From Ginglymostoma cirratum (Eukaryota), in assembly GCA_024137785.1 (NCBI GenBank), contig JAHRHZ010000085.1, forward strand, positions 1,709,651 to 1,773,650: 64,000 bases of DNA, in the 5' to 3' direction. The notes beneath the pieces are model-generated. The model ran no database searches, had not been told where the DNA came from, and saw only the letters and a program-made list of their open reading frames with translations. The translations under genes were made by a program, and so were the position numbers. This document shows positions 37,248 to 61,246 of this stretch, one piece after another. The first letter of the stretch is position 1. Every line of letters begins with the position of its first letter.

Positions 37248-39025
37248 AGAACAAAGAACAAAGAACAAAGAAAATTACAGCACAAGAACAGGCCCTTCGG
37301 CCCTCCAAGCCTGCGCCAATCCATATCCTCTGTCTAAGCCTGTCATCTATTTTCTAAGGGTCTCTCCTTGTCCATCCATGTACCTGTCCAGATACATCTT
37401 AAAAGACACTAACATATCTGCGTCTACCACCTCCGCTGGCAACGTGTTCCAGGCACCCACCACCCTCTGCATAAAGAACTTTCCACGCATATCTCCCATA
37501 AATGTTCCTCCTCTCACTTTGAACTCATGACCCTTAGTAATTGAGTCCCCCACTCTGGGAAAAAGCTTCCTGTTATCCACCTTGTCTATACCCCTCATGA
37601 TTTTGCAGATCTTAATCAGGTCCCCCCTCAATCTCCTTCTTTCTAATGAAAATAATCCTAGTCTACTCAACCTTTCTTCATAGCTAGCACCCTCCATACC
37701 AGGCAACATCCTGGTGAACCTCCTCAGCACCCTCTCCAAAGCATCCACATCCTTTTGGTAATGTGGTGACCAGAACTGTACACAGTACTCTAAATGTGGC
37801 CGAACCAAAGTCTTATACAACTGTAACATGACATGCCAACTCTTGTACTCAATACCCCGTCCGATGAAGGAAAGCATGTTGTATGCCTTCTTGACTACTC
37901 TATCGACCTGCGTTGCCACCTTCAGGGAACAATGGACCTGAACACGCAGATCTCTCTGTACACCAATTTTCCCCAGGACTTTTCCATTTACTGTATAGTT
38001 TGCTCTTGAATTAGATCTTCCAAAATGCATCACCTCGCATTTGCCTGGATTGCACTCTATCTGCCATTTCTCCACCCAACTCTCCAATCTTTGTGTCATC
38101 TGCAAACTTGTTAATCGGACCACCTATACCTTCCTCCAAATCATTTATGTATATCACAAACAACAGTGGTTCCAACACAGACCCCTGTGGAACACTACTG
38201 GTAACAGGTCTCCAATTTGAGAAACCCCCTTCCACTACTACTCTCTGTCTCCCGTTGCCTAGCCAGTTTTTTATCCATCTAGCTAGCACACCCTGGACCC
38301 CATGCGACTTCACTTTCTCCATCAGCCTGCCATGGGGAACCTTATCAAATGCCTTACTGAAGTCCATGTATATGACATCTACAGCCTTTCCCTCATCAAT
38401 CAATTTTGTCATGTCTGCAAAGAATTCTATTAAATTGGTAAGACATGACCTTCCCTGCACAAAACCATGTTGTCTATCACTGATAAGCCCATTTTCTTCC
38501 AAATGAGAATAGATCCTATCCCTCAGTATCTTCTCCAGCAGCTTCCCCACCACTGACATCAGGCTCAGCGGTCGATAATTACCTGGATTATCCCTGCCAC
38601 CCCTTTTAAACAAGAGGACAACATTAGCAATTCTCCAGTCCTCTGGGACCTCACCCGTGTTTAAGGATGCTGCAAAGATATCTGTTAACGCCCCAGCTAT
38701 TTCCTCTCTCGCTTCTCACAATAACCTGGGATAGATCCCATCCGGACCTGGGGACATGTCCAACTTAATGCTTTTTAGGATACCCAGTACTTCCTCCCTC
38801 CTTATGCCGACTTGACCTAGAGTAATCAAACATCTATCCCTAACCTCAACATCCATCATGCCCCTCTCCTTGGTGAATACCGATGTAAAGTACTCGTTAA
38901 GAATGTCACCCATTTTCTCTGACTCAATGCATAACTTTCCTTCTTTGTCCTTAAGTGGGCCAATCCTTTCTCTAGTTACCCTCTTGCTCTTTATATATGA
39001 ATAAAAGGCTTTGGGATTTTCCTTA
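37248..39025 (-). mobile_element. Young CR1 (HER1-like) LINE, 5'-truncated
   Basis: Long ORFs 38011-38613 and 37347-38123 ([50 protein letters not shown]). Tail (TTCTTTG)n at 37248-37272. Confidence 0.95.
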
Positions 39026-39327
39026 ATGTATCTGGTTTATTTGGACTTCCATTATGCTTTAGAAAAAGTCTAACATAAAACATTAATGTATATAATTAAA
39101 GTGCACGGAATTGGATTATAGAAATTGGATAGAAAATTGATTAGCAGATAGGAAACAAAGTGTTGGAATAAATGGATCTTTTTCTGAACGTCAGGTAGTG
39201 ATTATTTGGTTACTGCAGAGATCAGTATAAGTTAATGATTTAGATGAGGGAGCTAAATGCAATATCTCAAATTTTGCAGGTCATAGAAACCTAGGTGGAA
39301 GGGTGAGCTGTGAGGAGGATGCAGAGT

Positions 39328-48125: not shown

Positions 48126-51100
48126 AAAACCAAAAGAACTGCAGATGCTGTAAAGCAGGAACAAAAGCAAAGCTGCTGGAAAAGCTCAGCAGGTCTGGCA
48201 GCATCTGTGGAGGAAAAAAAGAGTTAACATTTCGGGTCCTCAGAACTGATGGTGGCTGGGAAAATGTCAGTTTATATGCTGAAAATAGGGAGGTGGGTGG
48301 GATAGGGAGTAAACGATAGGATAGAGGCCAAAGAGAGAGAAAGACAGTTGGACAGACAAAGGAGTTGCTAACAGTCAGGATGGGAGGGTGAGTTCTTGTT
48401 AATGGGGACTGTTAGTGACCAACAACAGGGGGTGTGCAGTGACAGGCTATGTGGTAACAAGGCCTGGTTTGTGGCGGGTGAGAGTTTAGGCCCTAAAATT
48501 ATTGAACTCAATATTGAGTCCGGAGGGCTGTAGGGTCCCCAAGTGGAAAATGAGGTGTTGTTCCTCCAGCTTGCATTGGGCTTCACTGGAACACTGTAGC
48601 AAGCCAGAGACAGAGATATTGGTCAGGGAGCGGGGTGGTGCATTGAAGTGGCAGGCAAAAGGTAGTTCAGGGTCTTTTTTGCGAGTAGAACGTAGATGTT
48701 CTGCGAAGCGGTCGCCAAGTCTATGCTTCATTCCCCCAATGTAGAGGAGACCACATTGTGAGCAGCAAATGCAGTAGACTAGATTCTTGGAAGTGCAGGT
48801 GAAGTGTTGCTTCACCTGGAAGGTATGTTTGGGCCCTTGGATACTGGGGCGGGAGGAGGTAAATGGGCAGGTGTTGCACCTTTGCCAGTTACAGGGGAAG
48901 GTGCCATAGGGCTGTGGGGAGGTGTTGGCCGTGAAGGAAGTGTGGACTGGGGTGTCCCGGGGGGAATGGCTCCTGCGGAAGGCGGACAAGGGAGGGGAGG
49001 GGAATATATGCCTGGTGGTGGCATTTTGCTGAAGGTGGTGGAACTGGCATATGATGATCTTCTGGATGTGGATGCTGGTGGGATGGTAGGTGAGGATAAA
49101 GGGAACCCTATCGCTGTTGCAGGAGGGAAGAGAAGGGGTGAGGCAGAGTTATGGGAGATGGGTTGGAACTAATTGAGGGCCCTGTTGACAACGGAGCTGG
49201 GGAATCCTCAGTTGAGGAAGAATGTGGATATTTCGGAGGCTCCCTTGTCAAAGTTGGCCTCATCTGAACATATGCGTGGGAGACGGAGGAACTGAGAGAA
49301 TGGGATAGAGTCTTTACAAGAAGTGGGGTGTGAGGATGTATAGTTAAGGTAGCTGTGGGAGTTGGTGGATTTGAAATGGATATTAATGGCCAGTCTATCC
49401 CCAGAAATAGAAACAGAAATGTCGAGAAAGGGAAGGGAGGAGTCAGAGATAGACCAGGTGATGGTGAGGGTAGTGTAGAAATTGGAGGCAAAATTGATGA
49501 AGTTTTCCAATTCTAGACAAGAGAGGGAAGCAGCACCGATGATATCATCGATGTTTTGGAGAAGGAGTTTTGGGTGGGGGCTGGAATAGGACTGGAATAA
49601 GGAATGTTCCATGTACCCCACGAAGAGACAGGCATAACTAGGGCCCATGCGGGTACCCATGGCAACCCCTCTTACCTGAAGAAAATGAGAGGAGTTGAAA
49701 GAGAAGTTGTTGAGGGTGAGGACAAGCTCAGCCAAGTGGAGGAGGGTGATGGTGGGTGGGGATGGTTCAGGTCTTTGCTTCAGCAAGAAGCGGGGATCCC
49801 TAACACCCTCCTGGTGGGGAATGGATGTGTAAAGGGATTGCACATCCATGGTAAAGAGGAGGTGGCTGGAACCAGTAAACTGGAAGCTTTGAAACAGGCA
49901 TAAGGCGTCAGATGATGTATGTGGGTAGGGATTGGACCAGGAGGGAGAGGACTGAGTCAAGGTAGGAAGAGATGAGCTCTGTGGAGTATGAGCTGGCTGA
50001 AACAATGGGTCTACCTGGACAGTCCTGTTTGTGGAATTTTGGCAGGAGGTAGAAATGAGCTATGCGGGGCTGGGGGACAATTAGCTTGGAAGCGGGTTGG
50101 GGGAGATCACCGGATGAAATGATATCTGTAACCGTAGTGGATACAATGGCCTGATCTGCCACGGTGGGGTCATGGTTCAGGGGAAGGTCGGAGGAGGTAT
50201 CTGAGGGCTGGCGCTCAGCCTCTGCAAGGTAGAGATCAGTATGCCAGACCACAGCAGCACCACCCTAATCGGCAGGCTTGATGACAAAGTCAGGGTTAGA
50301 TCTGAGTGCACAGAGTGCAGTCAGTTCGGAGGGACATAGGTTAGATTTGTTGAGAGGGGCAGCGAAATTGAGGCGACTAATATCATGTCAACAGTTCTCA
50401 ATGAAAAGATCGAGTGCAGGTAAAAGGCTGGAGGGAGGGGTCCAGGTGGAGGGAGAGTGTTGGAGTTGGGAGAAGGGGTCTGTGGGACGGGGAGAGGACT
50501 CTTGTCCAAAGAAGTGAGCGCGGGGGTGAAGATGGCAGGAGAACAGTTCAGCGTCATGTTATGCGCAAAATACGTTAAAGTGGGGACTCAGAAGGACAAA
50601 GCTGAGGCCTTTTCTGAGTACAGAGCATTCAGCATCGGAGAACAGAAGGTTAGGAGGGATGGTGAATATCCAACAGGAGGTGGGAGGGTTGGGGGAGGGG
50701 ATAGAGTCAGAGGGAAGAGGAGAAGAGGTAGGTTCCAGAGGGCCGTGGGTATTTTTGAGTTGTTGCATTTTGTGGGCTTTGATGCCTGAAAAGAAAAGAA
50801 AAAGTTTCTTGTTAGCACGAACCAGAGGATGAAGTGGAACTGCGGAGAGGTGCAGCCCTGAGCCAGTGTGTTGCGACGCTGTTGGAGAGAAAGGTTGAGA
50901 GTGCGCATGTGGTGCCGCATGGCACTGAGTGTGGATCTCAGGATGCGGCGAGAGCAGCTGTCCGTGGAACGTTGAACATCACGGAGATACCTGTGATCCT
51001 TGGAAGATTCAAAGCATGAGGGATGAAACTTCAGCTGGAATCCACGTGGGGTGAGTCTGAGCCAGAGGCAGTCACTGAGGAATGTGATATGGCTGTGGAA

Positions 51101-53424: not shown

Positions 53425-53900
53425 TAAAGTCGAGTTTGTAAACATGCTTCCCGAGCTGGTAGGTTTGGTTGCAAATGTTTGGTCACCCTGCTGGTAACAT
53501 CGTCAGTGCACCTCCAGTGAAACGTTGGTGTTTTGTCGCACTTGTTACTTATATGCCTCGGTTTGCTGGGGTGGTTGGTATTACTGCCTGTCCTGTTTTT
53601 CTGTGGTCTGTACACAGGCTCTAACTCAATGTGTTTGTTGATGGAGTTCCAGTTGGAAGACCAGGCCTCCAGGGATTCCCTGGCTTATCTCTGTTTGGCT
53701 TGTGAGATTATGGATGTGTTGTCAGAGTCTAATTCGTGTCCCTAGTTGTCTCTGTGCAGTGAGACAAGTGAGAATTAGTCGTGTCTCTTGGTGGCTAGTT
53801 GGTGTTCATGTATCCGTATTGTCAATTTTCTTCCGGTTTGGCCTATGTAATGTTTCGGGCAGTCCTTGCATGGTATTTTGTTCATTATCCCAGATTTTCT
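53425..53900 (-). mobile_element. Penelope (Poseidon type) 3' fragment, same family as 1-1350
   Basis: Minus frame reads IPCKDCPKHYIGQTGRKLTIRIHEHQLATKRHD. Decayed hammerhead at 53470-53510 (ugca-CUGACGA-u-guuacc..ggugac-CAAA-CA-UU-ugca). Confidence 0.85.
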
Positions 53901-54050
53901 AGTTTTAGGTATGGGATCTTTTACTACTGATGAGTAATAAAGCCTGTGTGAACGTAATATTGTTGAGATAACACGGTGGTGGGAATGTGCGCTCTACTGA
54001 CTCCCCCCTTTACATGCTATGCATGTATTAAAATGGAATTTTTAGCTGAC

Positions 54051-54165
54051 CCCCTTGCCTTTTCAGATACAGAGATGGCAACAATGCAGGTGGTGAAGGC
54101 TAGAGATATTAATACTGTTCCTGCATGTCCAGATATTTGTCGGTAAATGGGTATTTGCCTCTTCC
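54051..54165 (-). CDS. Probable connecting-peptide/transmembrane exon of the Ig-superfamily receptor gene
   Basis: ttttacag|GG, phase 1 in, matching the C1 exon. Reads GKRQIPIYRQISGHAGTVLISLAFTTCIVAISVSEKARG with a hydrophobic stretch. Donor gtcagc. Confidence 0.55.
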
Positions 54166-54562
54166 CTGTAAAAATCAGATGATGGTGGAACTAGTAATCA
54201 TAATATTACTATTGTGAACAAGATCAGTAATCAATACTCCTCTTTTCATGGGATCCTCACACATCTGAGCCAAGTACTTAGATTTGGCATAATGCAGTTT
54301 TTTTTAATTGAATCTTACTTTACATTCAGAATCTTACTTTACATTGCTTTCAGAGCTATTCTGTATTGCACTAGTAAAATAAACAGTATTTTCCTTTGAA
54401 TGGTGGACATGAACTTTGCAGTGAAGAAAATTATGGCGCAATTTCTCATCGAGTTACTCAGTCCTGGGTGATATTTCACCAACAATAAGAGGGTTAACGG
54501 GGTAATTGTTTGCAACTGACTACTTAAGAAAAGGGAAACACTTTCATTAAACGAGTTATTCA

Positions 54563-54596
54563 TTTCTGATGAAGGGTCTAGGCCCGAAACGTCAAG
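54563..54596 (+). ncRNA. Minimal hammerhead motif in an isolated 100-bp Penelope terminal fragment (54560-54660) within the Ig-gene intron
   Basis: Identical to 45526-45559: tttctgatgaagggtctaggcccgaaacgtcaag. Confidence 0.72.
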
Positions 54597-54937
54597 CTTT
54601 CCTGCTCCTATGATGCTGCTTGGCCTGCTGTGTTCATCCAGCTCCACACCTTGTCATCTAGAAAAAAACATTCAATACATTAACAAATTCTTTGTTGAAT
54701 AAAGAATAATTGCATCTGTTGGAAGTAGGTCTTATGGATTGTATTTACTGATAGGTTAAGCTCTGTTCCTGAGGTACGAAACATTTTTGTTCTATTTGTC
54801 TCTTTCTATAAGTTAATCAATAATCTTTAAATTTACTTTTCGTGAAATCTATTGTATATCCGAAACAAACAAAAACTTTGAAAGATATCAAAGGCTCCAT
54901 GCTAATAAGAAGCCGATAGTGACGGGTTGAAGGTTAC

Positions 54938-55237
54938 CTGAATAAGGACTGGAGGCAGCGTAGACAGAGATAGCTGGACTCTGCAGTGTGGGGTGAGACA
55001 CCACGCAGGTATACACGGCCCCGCTCTCAGCTGGCTGCAGAGTCACCAAACTGCTGGCCGCTGCATACATCCCGTCCGGAGTCAGCTGCTGAGCTCTGCT
55101 GATCCCAGTCACATCGTTTTTACACCAAGTGAAGGCGAGAGATCCCGGATAGAACTTTGCCGATTCACATACCAGTGTTACAATAGAGACGTTTATTGCG
55201 GACACTTTAGTGATCAGTCTCAAGGGTTCTGGGGAAG
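54938..55237 (-). CDS. Immunoglobulin C1-set domain exon (SIRP/tapasin/B7-H6-like receptor; gene probably pseudogenised upstream)
   Basis: ttcacag|CT...TCA G|gtaacc, 300 nt, phase 1-1, open. C1 motifs TLVCESAKFYP, FTW, DGMYAAASSL, YTCVVSHPTL. Confidence 0.85.
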
Positions 55238-56647
55238 CTGTGAACCAGGACAAAGCGAACACTGGTGCTTTAAATTGTGGCCTCGTTTGACATCCAGTAT
55301 TGTAGAATATAAAAAAGGTACTTTAGTGGTCGGGGCAAAAAACAATTGCCGTGTTCTCTGCCTCTTGTTCTTTCTTTTTAAAATGTCACGATGAATCTAA
55401 TGCACATGTCAGTTGCATAATAATTTGTAATAAGATTCCTCTGTCATTTTCTCGATTAATCTATGGAATGTTGATGCAGCAGGAACTGAATCAGCGCAAG
55501 TCGTGTTGTTTGTCACAGCAAAGGGATACGTTGTCAGGCCTGACCATGGATATTCTATATTTTATTGTAATTACAGAGGCAATATGTAATGAAACTAATC
55601 ACGTTAATATATGCAAATCTGCAGCAAAGCGGGAAATTCTGTTCTACAGAGAAACGACACTGCTTCTGCGACACTTAGTGTGGAAAAGGAATACAATGGG
55701 CAACATTTGAAAAGGGACAGGTAGCAAACTAATGCAAATTTAATTCGAAGAAATTGGCAGGAAGTGAAGATCAACCGTGAAGTGGAACGAGGAAAGTGGC
55801 AAATAGCCTACACTTCGAGTCACTTGACCCAAACGCTTACTTCTGATTTCTCTCCACAGATGCTGCCAAACCTGCTGAGCTTTACCAGCAAGGTCTTTTT
55901 TTTTGTTTCTGATTTACAGCATCCGCAGTTTTTTCGTTTTTTATTGGCTAATAACCTATCCCAGTGCATTTGTTTTTTCATGTCGAAGACTAACAGAATT
56001 ATTTTTGACCCCTGTTGCTGGGGGAAACGGCAATTTCCACAGGTGGATTTGTCAGTCCGGAAATAAAATTGCAGACTATCACAAGCAGTTTCCTAAGACG
56101 ATCAAAAGGGCTTATTGGTCAGAATTGTAAGCTCGCCCAGAATGTATTCAAATTTCATGCTCTTGTGAACCTTTAACTGTATATAAGCTTTTCAAGGATG
56201 AGAGGAGTTGCAGTATTTAGTTGTACTATTTTTAACGTTATTACTCAGCCTTCTAATGAATTCCAATGGATAGGATACGGGAGGAGTCTCGCGGGCATCA
56301 ATTTGTGTAAAAGTTACCACAATGTGGTAGAATTTCAAGCGTATGGTACTTACCGTATACAAAACAGAATTTTAAAGTGCAGGTACTTGTAAAAGCACAT
56401 TTATTCTCTGTACAAGAAGCTAGGCAAAGTCTTTCTCACTACCTCATAAAGCTCCTTTTGCCGTATCGGCCCTCTGTGTGGCATGCTAGAGCACTGTGCA
56501 ATATAGGTGAGTGGAGAATAATTATTATAATTGTGATATGGTTTTCGGGCTGAATTTAATCAATATTCTCCAGTCCTCTTCTATAACTAAACATTGGGAA
56601 TCAATTCACTAAATGACAGAGGCCTCCACCCCTCAGAGGCGACATAT

Positions 56648-56958
56648 CATGCACGACAAGCTGCGATCCGTATCCATTTAGAATCGTGCTCCCTGAGAAT
56701 CGCACTCCACAATAATAGGATCCAGAATTGGTGATGCGGACGCTCCGGATCTGGAAGGAAGCTACTCTGTCTTCAAAGCGAAAGAATCATTTACGGCCGC
56801 TAGAATCGGTTGTAATAACGTGTCGTCGCCAAATTTCCACCAATAAACATCCAACGCCGCATGAATCGGGACAGAGCTCACTGTACAATTGAAGCGAATG
56901 TCTGCACCCGCCATCAGAATTGTTCTTTCAGGAGATTGCAAGACCGGAACGGAAGCAA
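56648..56958 (-). pseudogene. Germline-joined VJ-type Ig exon, disrupted
   Basis: VASVPVLQSPE..RFNCTV..DVYWWK..(-1 frameshift, TGA)..ASFQIRSVRITNSGSYYCGV..LNGYGSQLVVH. 311 nt (one short of 312). Donor reads G|atatgt instead of G|gtatgt. Confidence 0.88.
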
Positions 56959-57137
56959 CTATAAAATAACTGAGTGATAGCATTAAAATGAAATATACTT
57001 AGACATAGATAGATAGATAGATACAAAGCAGATCGACAGAGTGAAAGGCAGAGGGACGGGAATGTGACAAGGTCTTTTTAGAAAATTGATTGGAGAAAAA
57101 AGGTGTAAAAGAGGGTTGCCGAATATTTCGGTAATAC

Positions 57138-57183
57138 CTTTGTAAATCACCCCCAGAACACATAGGCCCTGCCACGGAACCAT
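57138..57183 (-). CDS. Leader (signal peptide) exon of Ig-superfamily unit 2
   Basis: MVPWQGLCVLGVIYK G|gtatta. 46 nt, phase 1, 179-nt intron to the V exon. Confidence 0.65.
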
Positions 57184-58419
57184 TGTTGAATCGTTACTGA
57201 TCTGCTAACCGTCTGTTGGTTTTGAAATATTTTGTCGTTAATGCGGTCTGTTTTACGAGGCGCTCACCTATTGCATCCGGTTTCTACAGCTGCTTCCTGC
57301 AGAGTTACTGTAGGTTGAAGTTTACCGAACCGCCGTTGGCCCTCTGTGCCTTTCTCATCCCGATGGCATAACAATGAAGAAGTAAGCATTGATGGAACAC
57401 ATCAATATTCTACAGAAACGACAGGCAGGAAAACGTGGAAATGGATGATGGGGTGCGGGAATCAGGTGGCAATAACTTGAAGTCAAAAAACTTGAGCAAT
57501 AAAATATTTAGAGTGGAATCTTATTCCCATGAAATTGTCTCTAAGGAGTCAATGTTTCCTCTCAGTGTGTATTGCACTAGTTCACAGAAAGGATACCAGG
57601 AAACTGTAGGGGATTAAGTAAAGGGGATTAGCAGAAGATACACATCAGCGTTGCGTCGGATATCTTCACAGCAAGATTTGAAGTCCTCCCTCCAAAACTC
57701 CCTAATCAGGCACCATTTGTGTTTCGTTTCGTGCTTCACCTGATATGCTCAGATCTCCCACGATAAAGCATTGGATCTATCACTGAGTCATATTAGCCGA
57801 ACAACTTCTAACTTCAAACCATTCATTTCCATCAAATGCAAAACGTTACTAGGCCAACCTCTTCATGGGATTAGTGCGAAAAGTATTGATTTTGGTTACA
57901 CATTTTGGTTACACATTTTACACATTCGGACAATTCACCTTTATTGGACACTTTTGCGGTTGTAACAGTGCTAAATATTGTCCGAGTTTCAACTCAAGAA
58001 TATCGTCAAATTGCTTTTAATTTCCTTCTCTCGATCGCCTGCACCTGATTTTTCACCTACTTCTCCCTCCATACCCTCCACCCTTCTCCAACGTAACTTT
58101 CCCATCTCCAACAAAGGCAAAATCGTGCGGATGGAGGAAATCTGAAACAAACATAGAGAATGTTGGAGAAGCTCAGCAGGACGGGCAGAGAAAGAGAAAA
58201 AGACGTGAACCTTCGAGTTCGGTTTGACTCTTCTTCAGAGCTGAGTGAATCGTCCTTCACTCCTTATTTTCTGGAAGGACTGCCCCCAACCTCCCAAAGT
58301 CTACATCTCTGCTGCTGTGACTCTGAACTTTCAACGCCAGTATTTTATAAGATGACTTCGTCTATCGTAGGCAAAGTTCAACCTTCTCTCATTGCATATG
58401 ACGACATGCATACTCATAA

Positions 58420-60360
58420 CACCGTAAGACGGAGAAGCAGAAGTAGGCCATTCAGCCCATCAAGTTTGTACCGCAATTCAATGAAATCATGACTGATCTG
58501 ATAATCATTAACTCCACTCCCCATAACCCTTGATTCCCTGACTGATTAAAAACCTATCTCAACCGTGAAATTCCAAATGACCTGACTCTACAGCTCTCTC
58601 TGATAAAGAATTCCAAAGATTTACTGCCCTCTTAGACATCATCTCTGTTCTATTTCGGCGACTTCTTTGAGATTGTGTTCTCTGATCCTAGACTGTCCTA
58701 CAAAGAAAGACAATCTCGTTGTATCTACCCTGTCAAGCCCCCTAAGCATGTTTCAATATGGTCGCCTTTCACTCTTCCAAACTATAACGAGTAGAAGTCT
58801 AAACTATTCAACCTCACGTCACAACGCAATCCCTCCATACTCTGGATGATTCCAGTAAACCTTGTTCAGGTTGTTTTGCTTGTTAATATATCTTTCCTTA
58901 GATAAAAGAACCAACACTGTTCCCAGTCTTCCTGGCACAGTCCAACTGGTACGTTGCATAGTTTAGGCAACATTTCCCTACATTTATACTCCATTATTTT
59001 TGAAATAAAAGGCGACTTTCCATTTACCTTCCCCGTTACCCAATAGAAATTGGATTCTAGCATCATGTGATAGATGCACAGATCTCATAAACTCTCTGTG
59101 CTGCAGTTTTCTGCAGTCAAACATGACTTCCTTCATCCAAGTCATTAATATATATTATAAATAATTATTGCTGCAGGACTGATCCATTTTGCGCTCCACT
59201 TTTTACAGGTTGCCATCCTGGAAATGGTTCCCTCCCTTTCTCCCAACAATGTATCTTTGAATCATTAGCCTACCCTTGGCCCATGGTAAGATATTGATCC
59301 CACCACAATGAGTACATATTAAGTATGCGAACGGTTGTCTTTTCGAATATCTTCGGGAAATCCAACTACACTATATCCCCTGATTCCTCTTTCTCGATAT
59401 ATGTCGTTCTTGTTACCTCTACAAATAATTCTGATAAACTTAACACAATAAATCCCTCGTCCATGACGTCATATTGACTCTGATCTCTTTGAGTCTGGAA
59501 ATGCTCTGCTATTACATCCTTCACAATAGATTAATTTTCCCAATAACAAATATTAAGCTATCTGGCCTTTGTTAATTTTCCTCTTCCACTTTTTGAATAA
59601 AAGCATTACATTGATGGATTTCCAATACTTTGGCACTTTTCCACAATTGAAAAATTCTTAGGAGCTGAACCTAGTTATAGCAACTCTCTGTAGTTACTTT
59701 CTTTTTTCTCCTAGGATGCATCCCATCAACTCCAGGGAACCTATTGGCCTTTAGCTAAGTTAGTTTCTCTAGAACATTTTCTCTAGTGATAATTACTGTA
59801 TTTATTTCCTCCAACGACCCATCTTTCTTTTGCTTCTTGGTATTTTGATATTTCTGGAAAGCTAAATGAGACTTCTACCATGGTGACTGAGTTGTCCAAC
59901 ACATCTGCCATTTCTTTTTCCCCATTGTTATTTCCCCAGACTTGCTTTCTAAGGCGCCTATTTTAACTTTGGGAGCTCCCTTGCTTTTTATATATTTAAA
60001 GAAGCTTTTGCTGTTTCTCTTAATATTGCTTCAAGTTTCCCCTCATATGCTATTTTCTCCCTTTTGTTTTATTCGATCAGCTCTTGATGACATTTAAAAT
60101 TTGCTGAATACTTTGGTTACCACTAATCTTTGCCACATATTTTTATTTCAATTGTATGCAATCTTTCATTTCTTTGGTTGACTTACTCCTTCCTAGCATC
60201 CTTCTTTTCACTGGAATGTATATCTGTATGAGACATGAACAATGTTCATTCTGCCATTATTCTTCAACTATCTTTGCGACTAAACTCTTTTCCCATTCCA
60301 CTTAGTCAAATCTGCCCACATTCATTTCTAATTAACCTTATTTAACTTTAGTGCCTAATA
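58420..60360 (-). mobile_element. Decayed CR1 LINE
   Basis: CR1 3' end (agaagtaggccattcagcccatc) and RT remnants (MEYKCREMLPKL..., QCWFFYLRKDILT). Confidence 0.7.
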
Positions 60361-60709
60361 GCACCGTGATATGGAATAAGATCTGATTATTAATTATGAA
60401 AACTCCCTTTTTGCACCTAGCACCTCTTTCAGGAACACTGCAATTTTAACTCCAGTGGCAGGTTGCATACTGTGGGTTTTGGAACAAAAACTACTAAAAG
60501 TTAACTCCCGGCTTCATCAATATTTGTGAAATGTTGCCAATCATATCAGTAGTAATGTAGGGAATTCGGAAGTGTGATTTCAATTGATAAATATTACACG
60601 TTGGCATTCCACTCCAAAATATGAATCCTTTAAACCATGAACAAGAAATATTTCAAAATGAGAAACATTCTAGTCAAGGACATCTCATTCGTCTTTTCCG
60701 TATACTTAC

Positions 60710-61030
60710 CTCAAACTGCTAGATTGGAACCCGTTCCGTTTCCAACGATTTTGCTTTGATAGGTGACAATGCAATGATGCATTCCTGCGTCTTCTGGCCT
60801 CACATTGATTATCCGAAGAAAGCCAACGAGTTTCGTTCTGAAACCAGTGATTTTTCTGTCATCTTGATCCGTGCTCAAATATTGATCATCTCCCTGTTTC
60901 CATCTGTGGACATCAGCACGTGGGCCAGTTTGAAAGAAAGGCAGCGAACGGTGAAAGGAAACGTTTGTTCCTGTCTTTGTAGTCACGCTGTCAGGGAGCT
61001 GAGTGGCTTTGAATAAGGATTCACTGGAAC
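60710..61030 (-). pseudogene. Germline-joined VJ-type Ig exon (NKp30/SIRP-like) lacking the B-strand Cys, with a stop just before the donor
   Basis: ccaatag|GT, 321 nt, phase 1-1: SSESLFKATQLPDSVTTKTGTNVSFH(R)SLP..DVHRWKQ..LRIINVRPEDAGMHHCIV..VGNGTGSNLAV* G|gtaagt. Confidence 0.82.
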
Positions 61031-61191
61031 CTATTGGAAAAGATAATGATATCCAGTATCACTGCAGGGAAAAGCGCCAGGTTGAGATTGTCAAGCAATA
61101 AGTACAATGGACAATGAAGCATGATGTATCAAATTAAAGTTAAACAGTTAGGTGGTTCAATGACAAACCACTGTATGGTAGGACGAGGTAC

Positions 61192-61246
61192 CTGTGTAAA
61201 TGATTCGTAGAAGAAAGAGACACCGGATTACAAGATTCGTCAACAT
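61192..61246 (-). CDS. Leader exon of Ig-superfamily unit 1
   Basis: MLTNLVIRCLFLLRIIYT G|gtacct. 55 nt, phase 1, 161-nt intron. Ends like the other leader (IYTG vs IYKG). Confidence 0.65.

What the first reader, a model, noticed from the sequence alone, without database searches (positions are those of the whole stretch)
54051..61246. Non-rearranging antigen-receptor-like locus: leader, germline-joined VJ, C1-set, TM
Seen: phase-compatible minus-strand exons L (57183-57138), V with an in-exon J-like G strand (NGYGSQLVV), C1-set (55237-54938) and TM (54165-54051), plus a second L + V unit (GNGTGSNLAV). No RSS splits V from J. Established: C1-set domains are largely confined to Ig, TCR, MHC, tapasin, SIRP and B7 relatives. 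A VJ-C1-TM membrane gene is the architecture proposed for the pre-RAG ancestor of antigen receptors, and single VJ exons define NKp30/CD28-like genes. Inference: this belongs to a poorly characterised cartilaginous-fish innate or NK receptor family undergoing birth and death.
Basis: partly seen in the sequence, partly recalled or inferred. Interest (0 to 1): 0.78.

Follow-up and report, generated by a model that had tools for sequence, protein, structure and literature searches.

The report
Two dead shark immune-receptor genes
This stretch holds two broken genes at the edge of a cluster of more than 60 antibody-like but non-rearranging cell-surface receptor genes, seen here only in sharks, rays and chimaeras, whose intact members likely act as brakes and accelerators of immune cells.

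Summary
The exons are real, but both units are pseudogenes. Gene 2 (leader, single-exon VJ, C1, TM) has a frameshift, a stop and a lost donor in V, and likely a frameshift in the TM exon. Gene 1 (leader, VJ) has lost the B-strand Cys, ends in TGA, and has no C1. No RSS lies near either V. Each has intact orthologous gene models in other elasmobranchs, with neighbouring accessions in horn shark. They sit at the edge of a family with at least 64 V and 49 C1 matches on two contigs. The family occurs in 20 chondrichthyan species including a chimaera, and forms its own clade in V and C1 trees, apart from Ig, TCR, UrIg, NKp30, B7-H6, TAPBPL and lungfish SIRP. Intact members carry ITIM/ITSM-like tails or a TM arginine, as paired receptors do. 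The cluster is not on the MHC or antigen-receptor contigs, so the 'pre-RAG relic' reading is unsupported. This scan found the family before on nearby DNA (e1-9299208, e1-9885891). My searches found no paper on it, but five key papers were not read. No ligand or spliced transcript was shown.

The parts
61192..61246 (-). Gene 1 leader exon (55 nt, phase-1 donor)
   Evidence: resembles the leader of horn-shark P0002
60710..61030 (-). Gene 1 single-exon VJ domain, dead: Cys>Arg 60950, Trp>Arg 60905, TGA 60713; no C1 or TM follows
   Evidence: 59% to P0002; sister to P0002, SH-aLRT 100
57184..60709 (.). Interval where gene 1's C1 and TM would lie; none found; repeat-derived DNA at about 58.0-60.3 kb
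   Evidence: no tblastn or HMM hit; repeat depth
57138..57183 (-). Gene 2 leader exon (46 nt, phase-1 donor), intact
56651..56958 (-). Gene 2 single-exon VJ domain, dead: 1-nt loss near 56806, TGA 56789, donor reads AT
   Evidence: (clade with P0022/P0048, SH-aLRT 97); first two lesions also in run X3
54938..55237 (-). Gene 2 C1-set exon, open frame, 3 residues shorter than orthologues
   Evidence: 57-63% to P0021/P0022; end branch 0.52 against 0.09-0.24 in orthologues
54059..54165 (-). Gene 2 transmembrane exon, likely frameshifted near 54083, TGA 54065, GC donor

Best explanation
The finding is two adjacent pseudogenes of a large cartilaginous-fish family of non-rearranging leader-VJ-C1-TM receptors, whose intact members likely work as paired inhibitory and activating immune receptors. 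Shown: exon structure, lesions, orthology, family size, taxonomic range among the hits named, and tail motifs. Inferred from SIRP, LILR and NKp30 biology (recalled): the germline VJ domain binds a fixed ligand on a C1 stalk; ITIM/ITSM tails recruit SHP-1/2; short-tailed members with a TM arginine signal through an ITAM adaptor such as FcR-gamma or CD3-zeta. Gene 2's orthologues have short tails with no ITIM and no shared charged TM residue, so it was likely a decoy or partner chain. Gene 1's orthologue has an arginine at the start of the TM, so it was likely an activating type. Both lineages appear to be lost in this shark.
For: Lesions. Orthologues: (horn shark XP_067906082/084/085/087/088). 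No better copy of either gene among scored candidates: next-best C1 match 44% identity, next-best match to P0072 43% against 58%. Family size: 64 of 67 V matches and 49 of 54 C1 matches lie on C84/C85; 14 of 64 and 7 of 49 contain stops. No RSS at 29 of 29 paralogous V exons; 21 of 29 show a GT donor right after the G strand. Of 61 family-level proteins, 17 have two or more ITIM/ITSM-like motifs, 5 have one, 5 have an Arg at the TM start, 2 have a CxxC tail, 16 are other and 16 have no TM in the model. Both signalling types occur in this genome. Family clade SH-aLRT 95-99. An AlphaFold model of P0022 gives V, C1 and a TM helix (pLDDT 84).
Against: No ligand, cell type or signalling was tested. 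ITIM-like hexamers come from a loose pattern. Trees are quick, about 105 columns, SH-aLRT only, with unresolved sister groups, and hold one SIRP and no PRARP sequence. Orthologue proteins are automatic RefSeq models. The TM frameshift is favoured by only 3 of 6 orthologues. The GxG motif is absent from one expanded subfamily.
Confidence: 0.75

Rival explanations
1. The family is the chondrichthyan SIRP family in a shorter V-C1 form.
For: VJ plus true C1-set, paired tails, and four-tyrosine tails in some members (P0056, P0059). SIRP-alpha is among the top PDB hits of the family profile (108 bits). RefSeq often names members SHPS-1-like.
Against: One C1, where SIRP-alpha has two (PMC2785349). 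Lungfish SIRP (P0202, best PDB hit SIRP-alpha at 151 bits) does not join the family in V or C1 trees. Its best matches in this genome are two C1 exons on C61 (43 and 39 bits) ahead of the family (32 or less). The SEP-domain gene that resembles the SIRP neighbour NSFL1C (label and linkage recalled) is on C87.
Confidence: 0.12
2. The family is the shark expansion of PRARP/VJ-C1 genes, a proto-MHC relic close to the gene invaded by RAG.
For: Same leader-VJ-C1-TM plan and phase-1 split leader. UrIg2 is the second PDB hit of the profile (122 bits over four domains). It is present in a holocephalan, so it is old.
Against: No MHC, Ig or TCR C1 exon was seen on C84/C85 among 150 scored matches; MHC-type and NKp30-like exons are on C2. 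The sawfish chromosome that carries the family (53.95 Mb) cannot be chr3 or chr12, and the catshark one (198.8 Mb) cannot be chr16 or chr21. V does not group with IgL or UrIg. Other VJ-C1 genes on C61 and C46 are alternative candidates for PRARP.
Confidence: 0.1
3. It is a decayed germline-joined Ig light-chain cluster.
For: Sharks have germline-joined IgL (PMC12227049; loci L105-L107). RefSeq names many members Ig lambda-like. Foldseek's top hits are Fab light chains.
Against: It has a TM exon, a WWKxG C strand and NGTG instead of FGxG. IgL V and C form separate clades. The Foldseek matches have rmsd 9-13 A.
Confidence: 0.01
4. The proteins are B7/butyrophilin-like ligands or adhesion molecules rather than leukocyte receptors.
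For: Best whole-model structural matches are B7-H6 and PD-L2 (Z 15.2 and 15.0, tied with NCAM2 and others). CD276 tops the phmmer list for P0046 by two repeats. The V tree weakly joins the family with B7-type V (SH-aLRT 89).
Against: J-like G strand, ITIM/ITSM and Arg-TM pairing, and rapid birth and death. Shark B7-H6-like genes lie on C62 and outside the clade.
Confidence: 0.07

Closest known systems
SIRP family (SIRP-alpha/beta/gamma)
   Same: Germline V plus true C1-set domain, type I TM, inhibitory and charged-TM members, tandem cluster
   Different: One C1 rather than two; Arg rather than Lys in the TM (SIRP-beta Lys is recalled); not joined to lungfish SIRP in either tree; far larger family
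PRARP and tetrapod VJ-C1 genes (Fu 2019, Ohta 2019; seen only as cited in PMC10751288, details recalled)
   Same: Non-rearranging VJ-C1-TM architecture with tyrosine motifs
   Different: Recalled as a gene pair or a few genes tied to MHC paralogons; this family has more than 60 members, and no MHC linkage was found
UrIg and UrIg2 (PMC12227049)
   Same: Shark single-exon VJ, split leader, C1 domains
   Different: UrIg has 3 C1 and is secreted, UrIg2 has 9 C1; they are MHC- or AgRC-linked; separate clades here
NKp30 (NCR3) and CD28H-like receptors
   Same: Single VJ exon; Arg in the TM (NKp30, recalled)
   Different: These have no C1 domain; shark NKp30-like exons lie on the MHC contig C2 and outside the clade
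B7-H6 and TAPBPL
   Same: V plus C1 ectodomain; similar elongated fold
   Different: No J-like GxG strand in the sampled V domains; separate clades and contigs

Membership tests
C1-set IgSF domain | FYP-type BC loop, 13 residues from Cys to Trp, xVxH after the F-strand Cys (PMC2785349) | tested here: met
   window C1 shows all three; Pfam C1-set above cut-off; Cys-13-Trp in 38 of 40 family C1 exons
Rearranging Ig/TCR | V and J split and flanked by RSS | tested here: not met
Germline-joined IgL | No TM exon; FGxG J motif; groups with IgL | tested here: not met
UrIg/UrIg2 | VJ plus three or more C1; groups with UrIg; MHC or AgRC linkage | tested here: not met
   single C1 in the window; separate clades; UrIg-like loci on C5 and C94 (labels from domain layout)
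NKp30/NCR3 | Single V with no C1, in the MHC | tested here: not met
   C1 present; NKp30-like exons on C2
SIRP | V-C1-C1 ectodomain | tested here: not met
   V plus one C1 in nearly all family-level hits; one model (P0083) has V-C1-C1
SIRP | Clade with bona fide SIRP domains | tested here: inconclusive
   not joined, but one SIRP only, with unresolved deep nodes
SIRP | Synteny with NSFL1C (recalled marker) | tested here: inconclusive
   SEP-domain genes on C87 and C52, not C84/C85; contigs are not chromosomes
SIRP | CD47 binding | not testable with these tools
   needs a binding assay
PRARP / tetrapod VJ-C1 | Non-rearranging VJ-C1-TM architecture | tested here: met
PRARP / tetrapod VJ-C1 | Orthology by tree and synteny | not tested
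   no PRARP sequence was recognised among the hits that I named; the defining papers were not read
Paired immune receptor family | Related ectodomains with ITIM-bearing and charged-TM members in one cluster | tested here: met
   (motif level only)
Paired immune receptor family | Leukocyte expression and opposing signalling | not testable with these tools
   no RNA run on record as such

The most novel reading that the evidence does not exclude
The cluster is an undescribed leukocyte receptor complex of cartilaginous fish, older than the shark-chimaera split: more than 60 germline VJ-C1 receptors, independent of SIRP and PRARP, that supply sharks with their inhibitory and activating self-recognition receptors (possibly for MHC class I), with conserved neighbours such as these two genes acting as partner chains that were lost together.
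Probability: 0.3. Interest if true: 0.8.

Novelty: new variant of a known kind. Interest (0 to 1): 0.5.

Why it matters
The two genes themselves are dead and ordinary. The family matters for two reasons. Which receptors give cartilaginous-fish NK and myeloid cells their inhibitory signals is an open question (own knowledge), and a large, old, paired VJ-C1 family that annotation pipelines scatter under IgL-like, B7-H6-like, SHPS-1-like, CD276 and MHC II names is a testable candidate. It also shows that the VJ-C1-TM plan expanded outside the MHC and antigen-receptor regions, which weakens architecture alone as evidence for a pre-RAG ancestor.

Tried and rejected
Expression: no listed holder is on record as RNA. 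Contigs of 4 runs cover parts of C1, V2 and V1 at depth 2-7, but also introns, and no exon-exon joint is listed (15 joints shown, 112 not). This is no evidence either way. A spliced transcript of an intact paralogue stays untested. A heterodimer prediction for the horn-shark orthologues was not available, so partnership is only an idea. Synteny markers: homeodomain (0 of 150 matches on C84/C85), BTB (0 of 136) and opioid precursor (1 match, C228) gave no marker, so the chromosome's identity is unknown. C. milii family gene ids and catshark/sawfish accession prefixes were not in the supplement of PMC10751288. No cytoplasmic exon remnant of gene 2 was found. Fold searches do not tell V-C1 families apart, and ESM Atlas hits are generic V/C1 clusters. 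Literature searches that found no description of the family. Not held: Ohta 2019, Dornburg and Yoder 2022 (24), Flajnik 2023 (25), Flajnik 2012 (81). Fu 2019 was not requested by id. These papers and their supplements could already mention the family. Rows left out of the trees: partial, duplicate and near-identical sequences, and three long branches.
Full report
Observation. The window is G000:C85:1709651-1773650 of a 4.36-Gb genome. One paralogue is 90-96% identical to a whale-shark model, so the genome is from a carpet-shark-like elasmobranch (inference). The C1 exon passes Pfam C1-set and has the hallmarks given in PMC2785349 (parts 2-3 of 4 read). Both V exons include the G strand, and no RSS lies near them.

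Both units are broken. Gene 2's V exon is 308 nt, with a 1-nt loss near 56806, TGA at 56789 and AT in place of the donor. Its TM exon likely has a short deletion, TGA at 54065 and a GC donor; this reading fits 3 of 6 orthologues better and 3 worse. Its C1 is open but on a long branch (0.52 against 0.09-0.24). Gene 1's V has Arg for the B-strand Cys and for the first Trp of the WWK motif, ends in TGA, and has no C1 downstream. Contigs from run X3 are identical to the window over the V2 frameshift and stop and the V1 Cys codon.

Orthologues. Gene 2 matches intact models in catshark (P0022), smooth-hound (P0048), horn shark (P0021, P0046), sevengill shark (P0045) and sawfish (P0050): C1 identity 57-63% for the two tested, and one clade in V and C1 trees. 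Gene 1 matches horn-shark P0002/P0072 (59%, SH-aLRT 100). The horn-shark accessions run 082, 084/085, 087/088 on one chromosome, which suggests a conserved neighbourhood (inference). No closer copy of either was found in this genome among scored candidates.

The family. One V query gave 67 matches, 64 on C84/C85, 14 of these with stops. The C1 query gave 54, 49 on C84/C85, 7 with stops. These are lower bounds. V and C1 mostly pair one to one, in both orientations, at C85 1.76-3.77 Mb, 9.6-9.86 Mb and 14.4 Mb, and at C84 0-0.09 Mb and 6.79-7.48 Mb. None of 29 V exons examined has an RSS. Relatives were named in 20 chondrichthyan species. In the best 150 hits over 1.84 billion proteins I counted 61 as family-level, with V and C1 both scoring high. 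Among printed rows, long multi-domain proteins reach at most 46 bits for V and 56 for C1. I named 10 of the lower-scoring family-level hits: 10 of 10 are chondrichthyan, 3 from the chimaera. The other family-level hits were not named, and weaker bony-vertebrate relatives may lie below rank 150.

Relationships. The family forms one clade for C1 (SH-aLRT 96 and 99) and V (95 and 97). The clade excludes this genome's germline-joined IgL, IgH, TCR-like, MHC, TAPBPL-like, UrIg-like, NKp30-like and CD28H-like exons (labels from motifs and layout, partly recalled; the E-I-P motif of CD28H is from passages of PMC11599192). It also excludes lungfish SIRP and lizard B7-H6 (identified). The sister group is unresolved. 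These are quick trees on about 105 columns. The fold model confirms V, C1 and a helix and matches B7-H6, PD-L2, NCAM2, IgNAR V and MHC II equally.

Location. MHC-type C1 exons and NKp30-like V exons lie on C2, and Ig and TCR C1 exons on other contigs; none was seen on C84/C85. Using supplementary tables of PMC10751288 (parts 1, 95, 96) and chromosome lengths: the sawfish carrier (53.95 Mb) is too short to be chr3 (MHCpara-1) or chr12 (MHCpara-14), and the catshark carrier (198.8 Mb) is not chr16 or chr21. Catshark chr13, 17 and 25 are excluded only if numbering follows size. White-shark chr8 is not excluded. No positive synteny marker was found.

How it likely works. Shown at motif level: long tails with LxYxxL and TEYxxL/I pairs, and short tails behind a TM arginine, both in this genome and across species. 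A third type has a Cys-rich membrane end and a CxRC tail. Inferred from established paired-receptor biology (recalled): inhibition through SHP-1/2, and activation through an ITAM adaptor, after a fixed ligand binds the germline V. Gene 2's lineage has neither motif and may have been a decoy or partner chain. Gene 1's lineage has the arginine. Ligand, cell type and dimer state are unknown.

What is known. PMC12227049 (parts 1-4 of 8 read) describes UrIg and UrIg2 as the shark non-rearranging candidates for RAG invasion and does not describe this family in those parts. PMC10751288 (passages) mentions NKp30, PRARP and tetrapod VJ-C1 genes. Eight searches found no description, but the library lacks most subscription papers and five key papers were not read. 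Two earlier notes of this scan report the same family 0.34 and 1.69 Mb away; they are AI notes, not independent support.

Verdict. The feature is real. Locally it is two pseudogenes. The family works like SIRP, LILR or KIR paired receptors (inferred), but was not shown to be a member of SIRP, PRARP, UrIg, NKp30 or Ig/TCR. Novelty: new variant of a known kind. Interest 0.5.

Noticed in passing
window 13204-12239 (-), 31697-30780 (-), about 23007-22422 (-): Two long open 7TM GPCR frames and one broken copy, nearest to GPR139 in PDB. The family gave 1403 first-look candidates, 124 scored, with copies on MHC contig C2 and on Ig/TCR-bearing contigs (C107, C115, C130, C150, C282, C146, C197). One paper search found nothing relevant by title.
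   Followed up: partly
L098, L097 (G000:C61:1.855 Mb - and 2.027 Mb +): Two divergently oriented C1 exons, one with an upstream single-exon VJ bearing a CD28H-like EIPPP loop. They are outside the family and are the best matches of lungfish SIRP in this genome: candidates for PRARP or SIRP.
   Followed up: partly
L095 (G000:C46:15.99-16.0 Mb) and L092 (G000:C42:23.34 Mb): Further single-copy non-rearranging genes: VJ-C1-TM on C46, and VJ-C1 plus a third Ig domain on C42.
   Followed up: no
L048, L049, L115 (G000:C84:6.776-6.796 Mb): A subfamily conserved from sharks to rays, with a related model in the chimaera, has a Cys-rich membrane end and a cytoplasmic CxRC motif in place of tyrosine motifs; possibly a metal- or kinase-binding tail (speculative).
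   Followed up: no
L059-L068, L090 (G000:C85:2.2-3.5 Mb; C84:0-0.04 Mb): [quoted passage not shown]
   Followed up: partly
L071:6975-7360 (G000:C85:9860475-9860860): The orthologue of a widely conserved ITIM member shows a stop in the aligned frame of a tail exon; either a shortened tail or an exon boundary.
   Followed up: no
P0197, P0214, P0152 (turtle proteins): Tandem VJ-type domains with GxG strands; the best V scores outside the family (41-46 bits). One has an ITIM-like tail and one an Arg in the TM.
   Followed up: partly
window 53427-53993, 37350-39036, 48489-50264: Decayed retroelement-like frames (reverse-transcriptase and nuclease-like by eye) and abundant SINE-like repeats.
   Followed up: no
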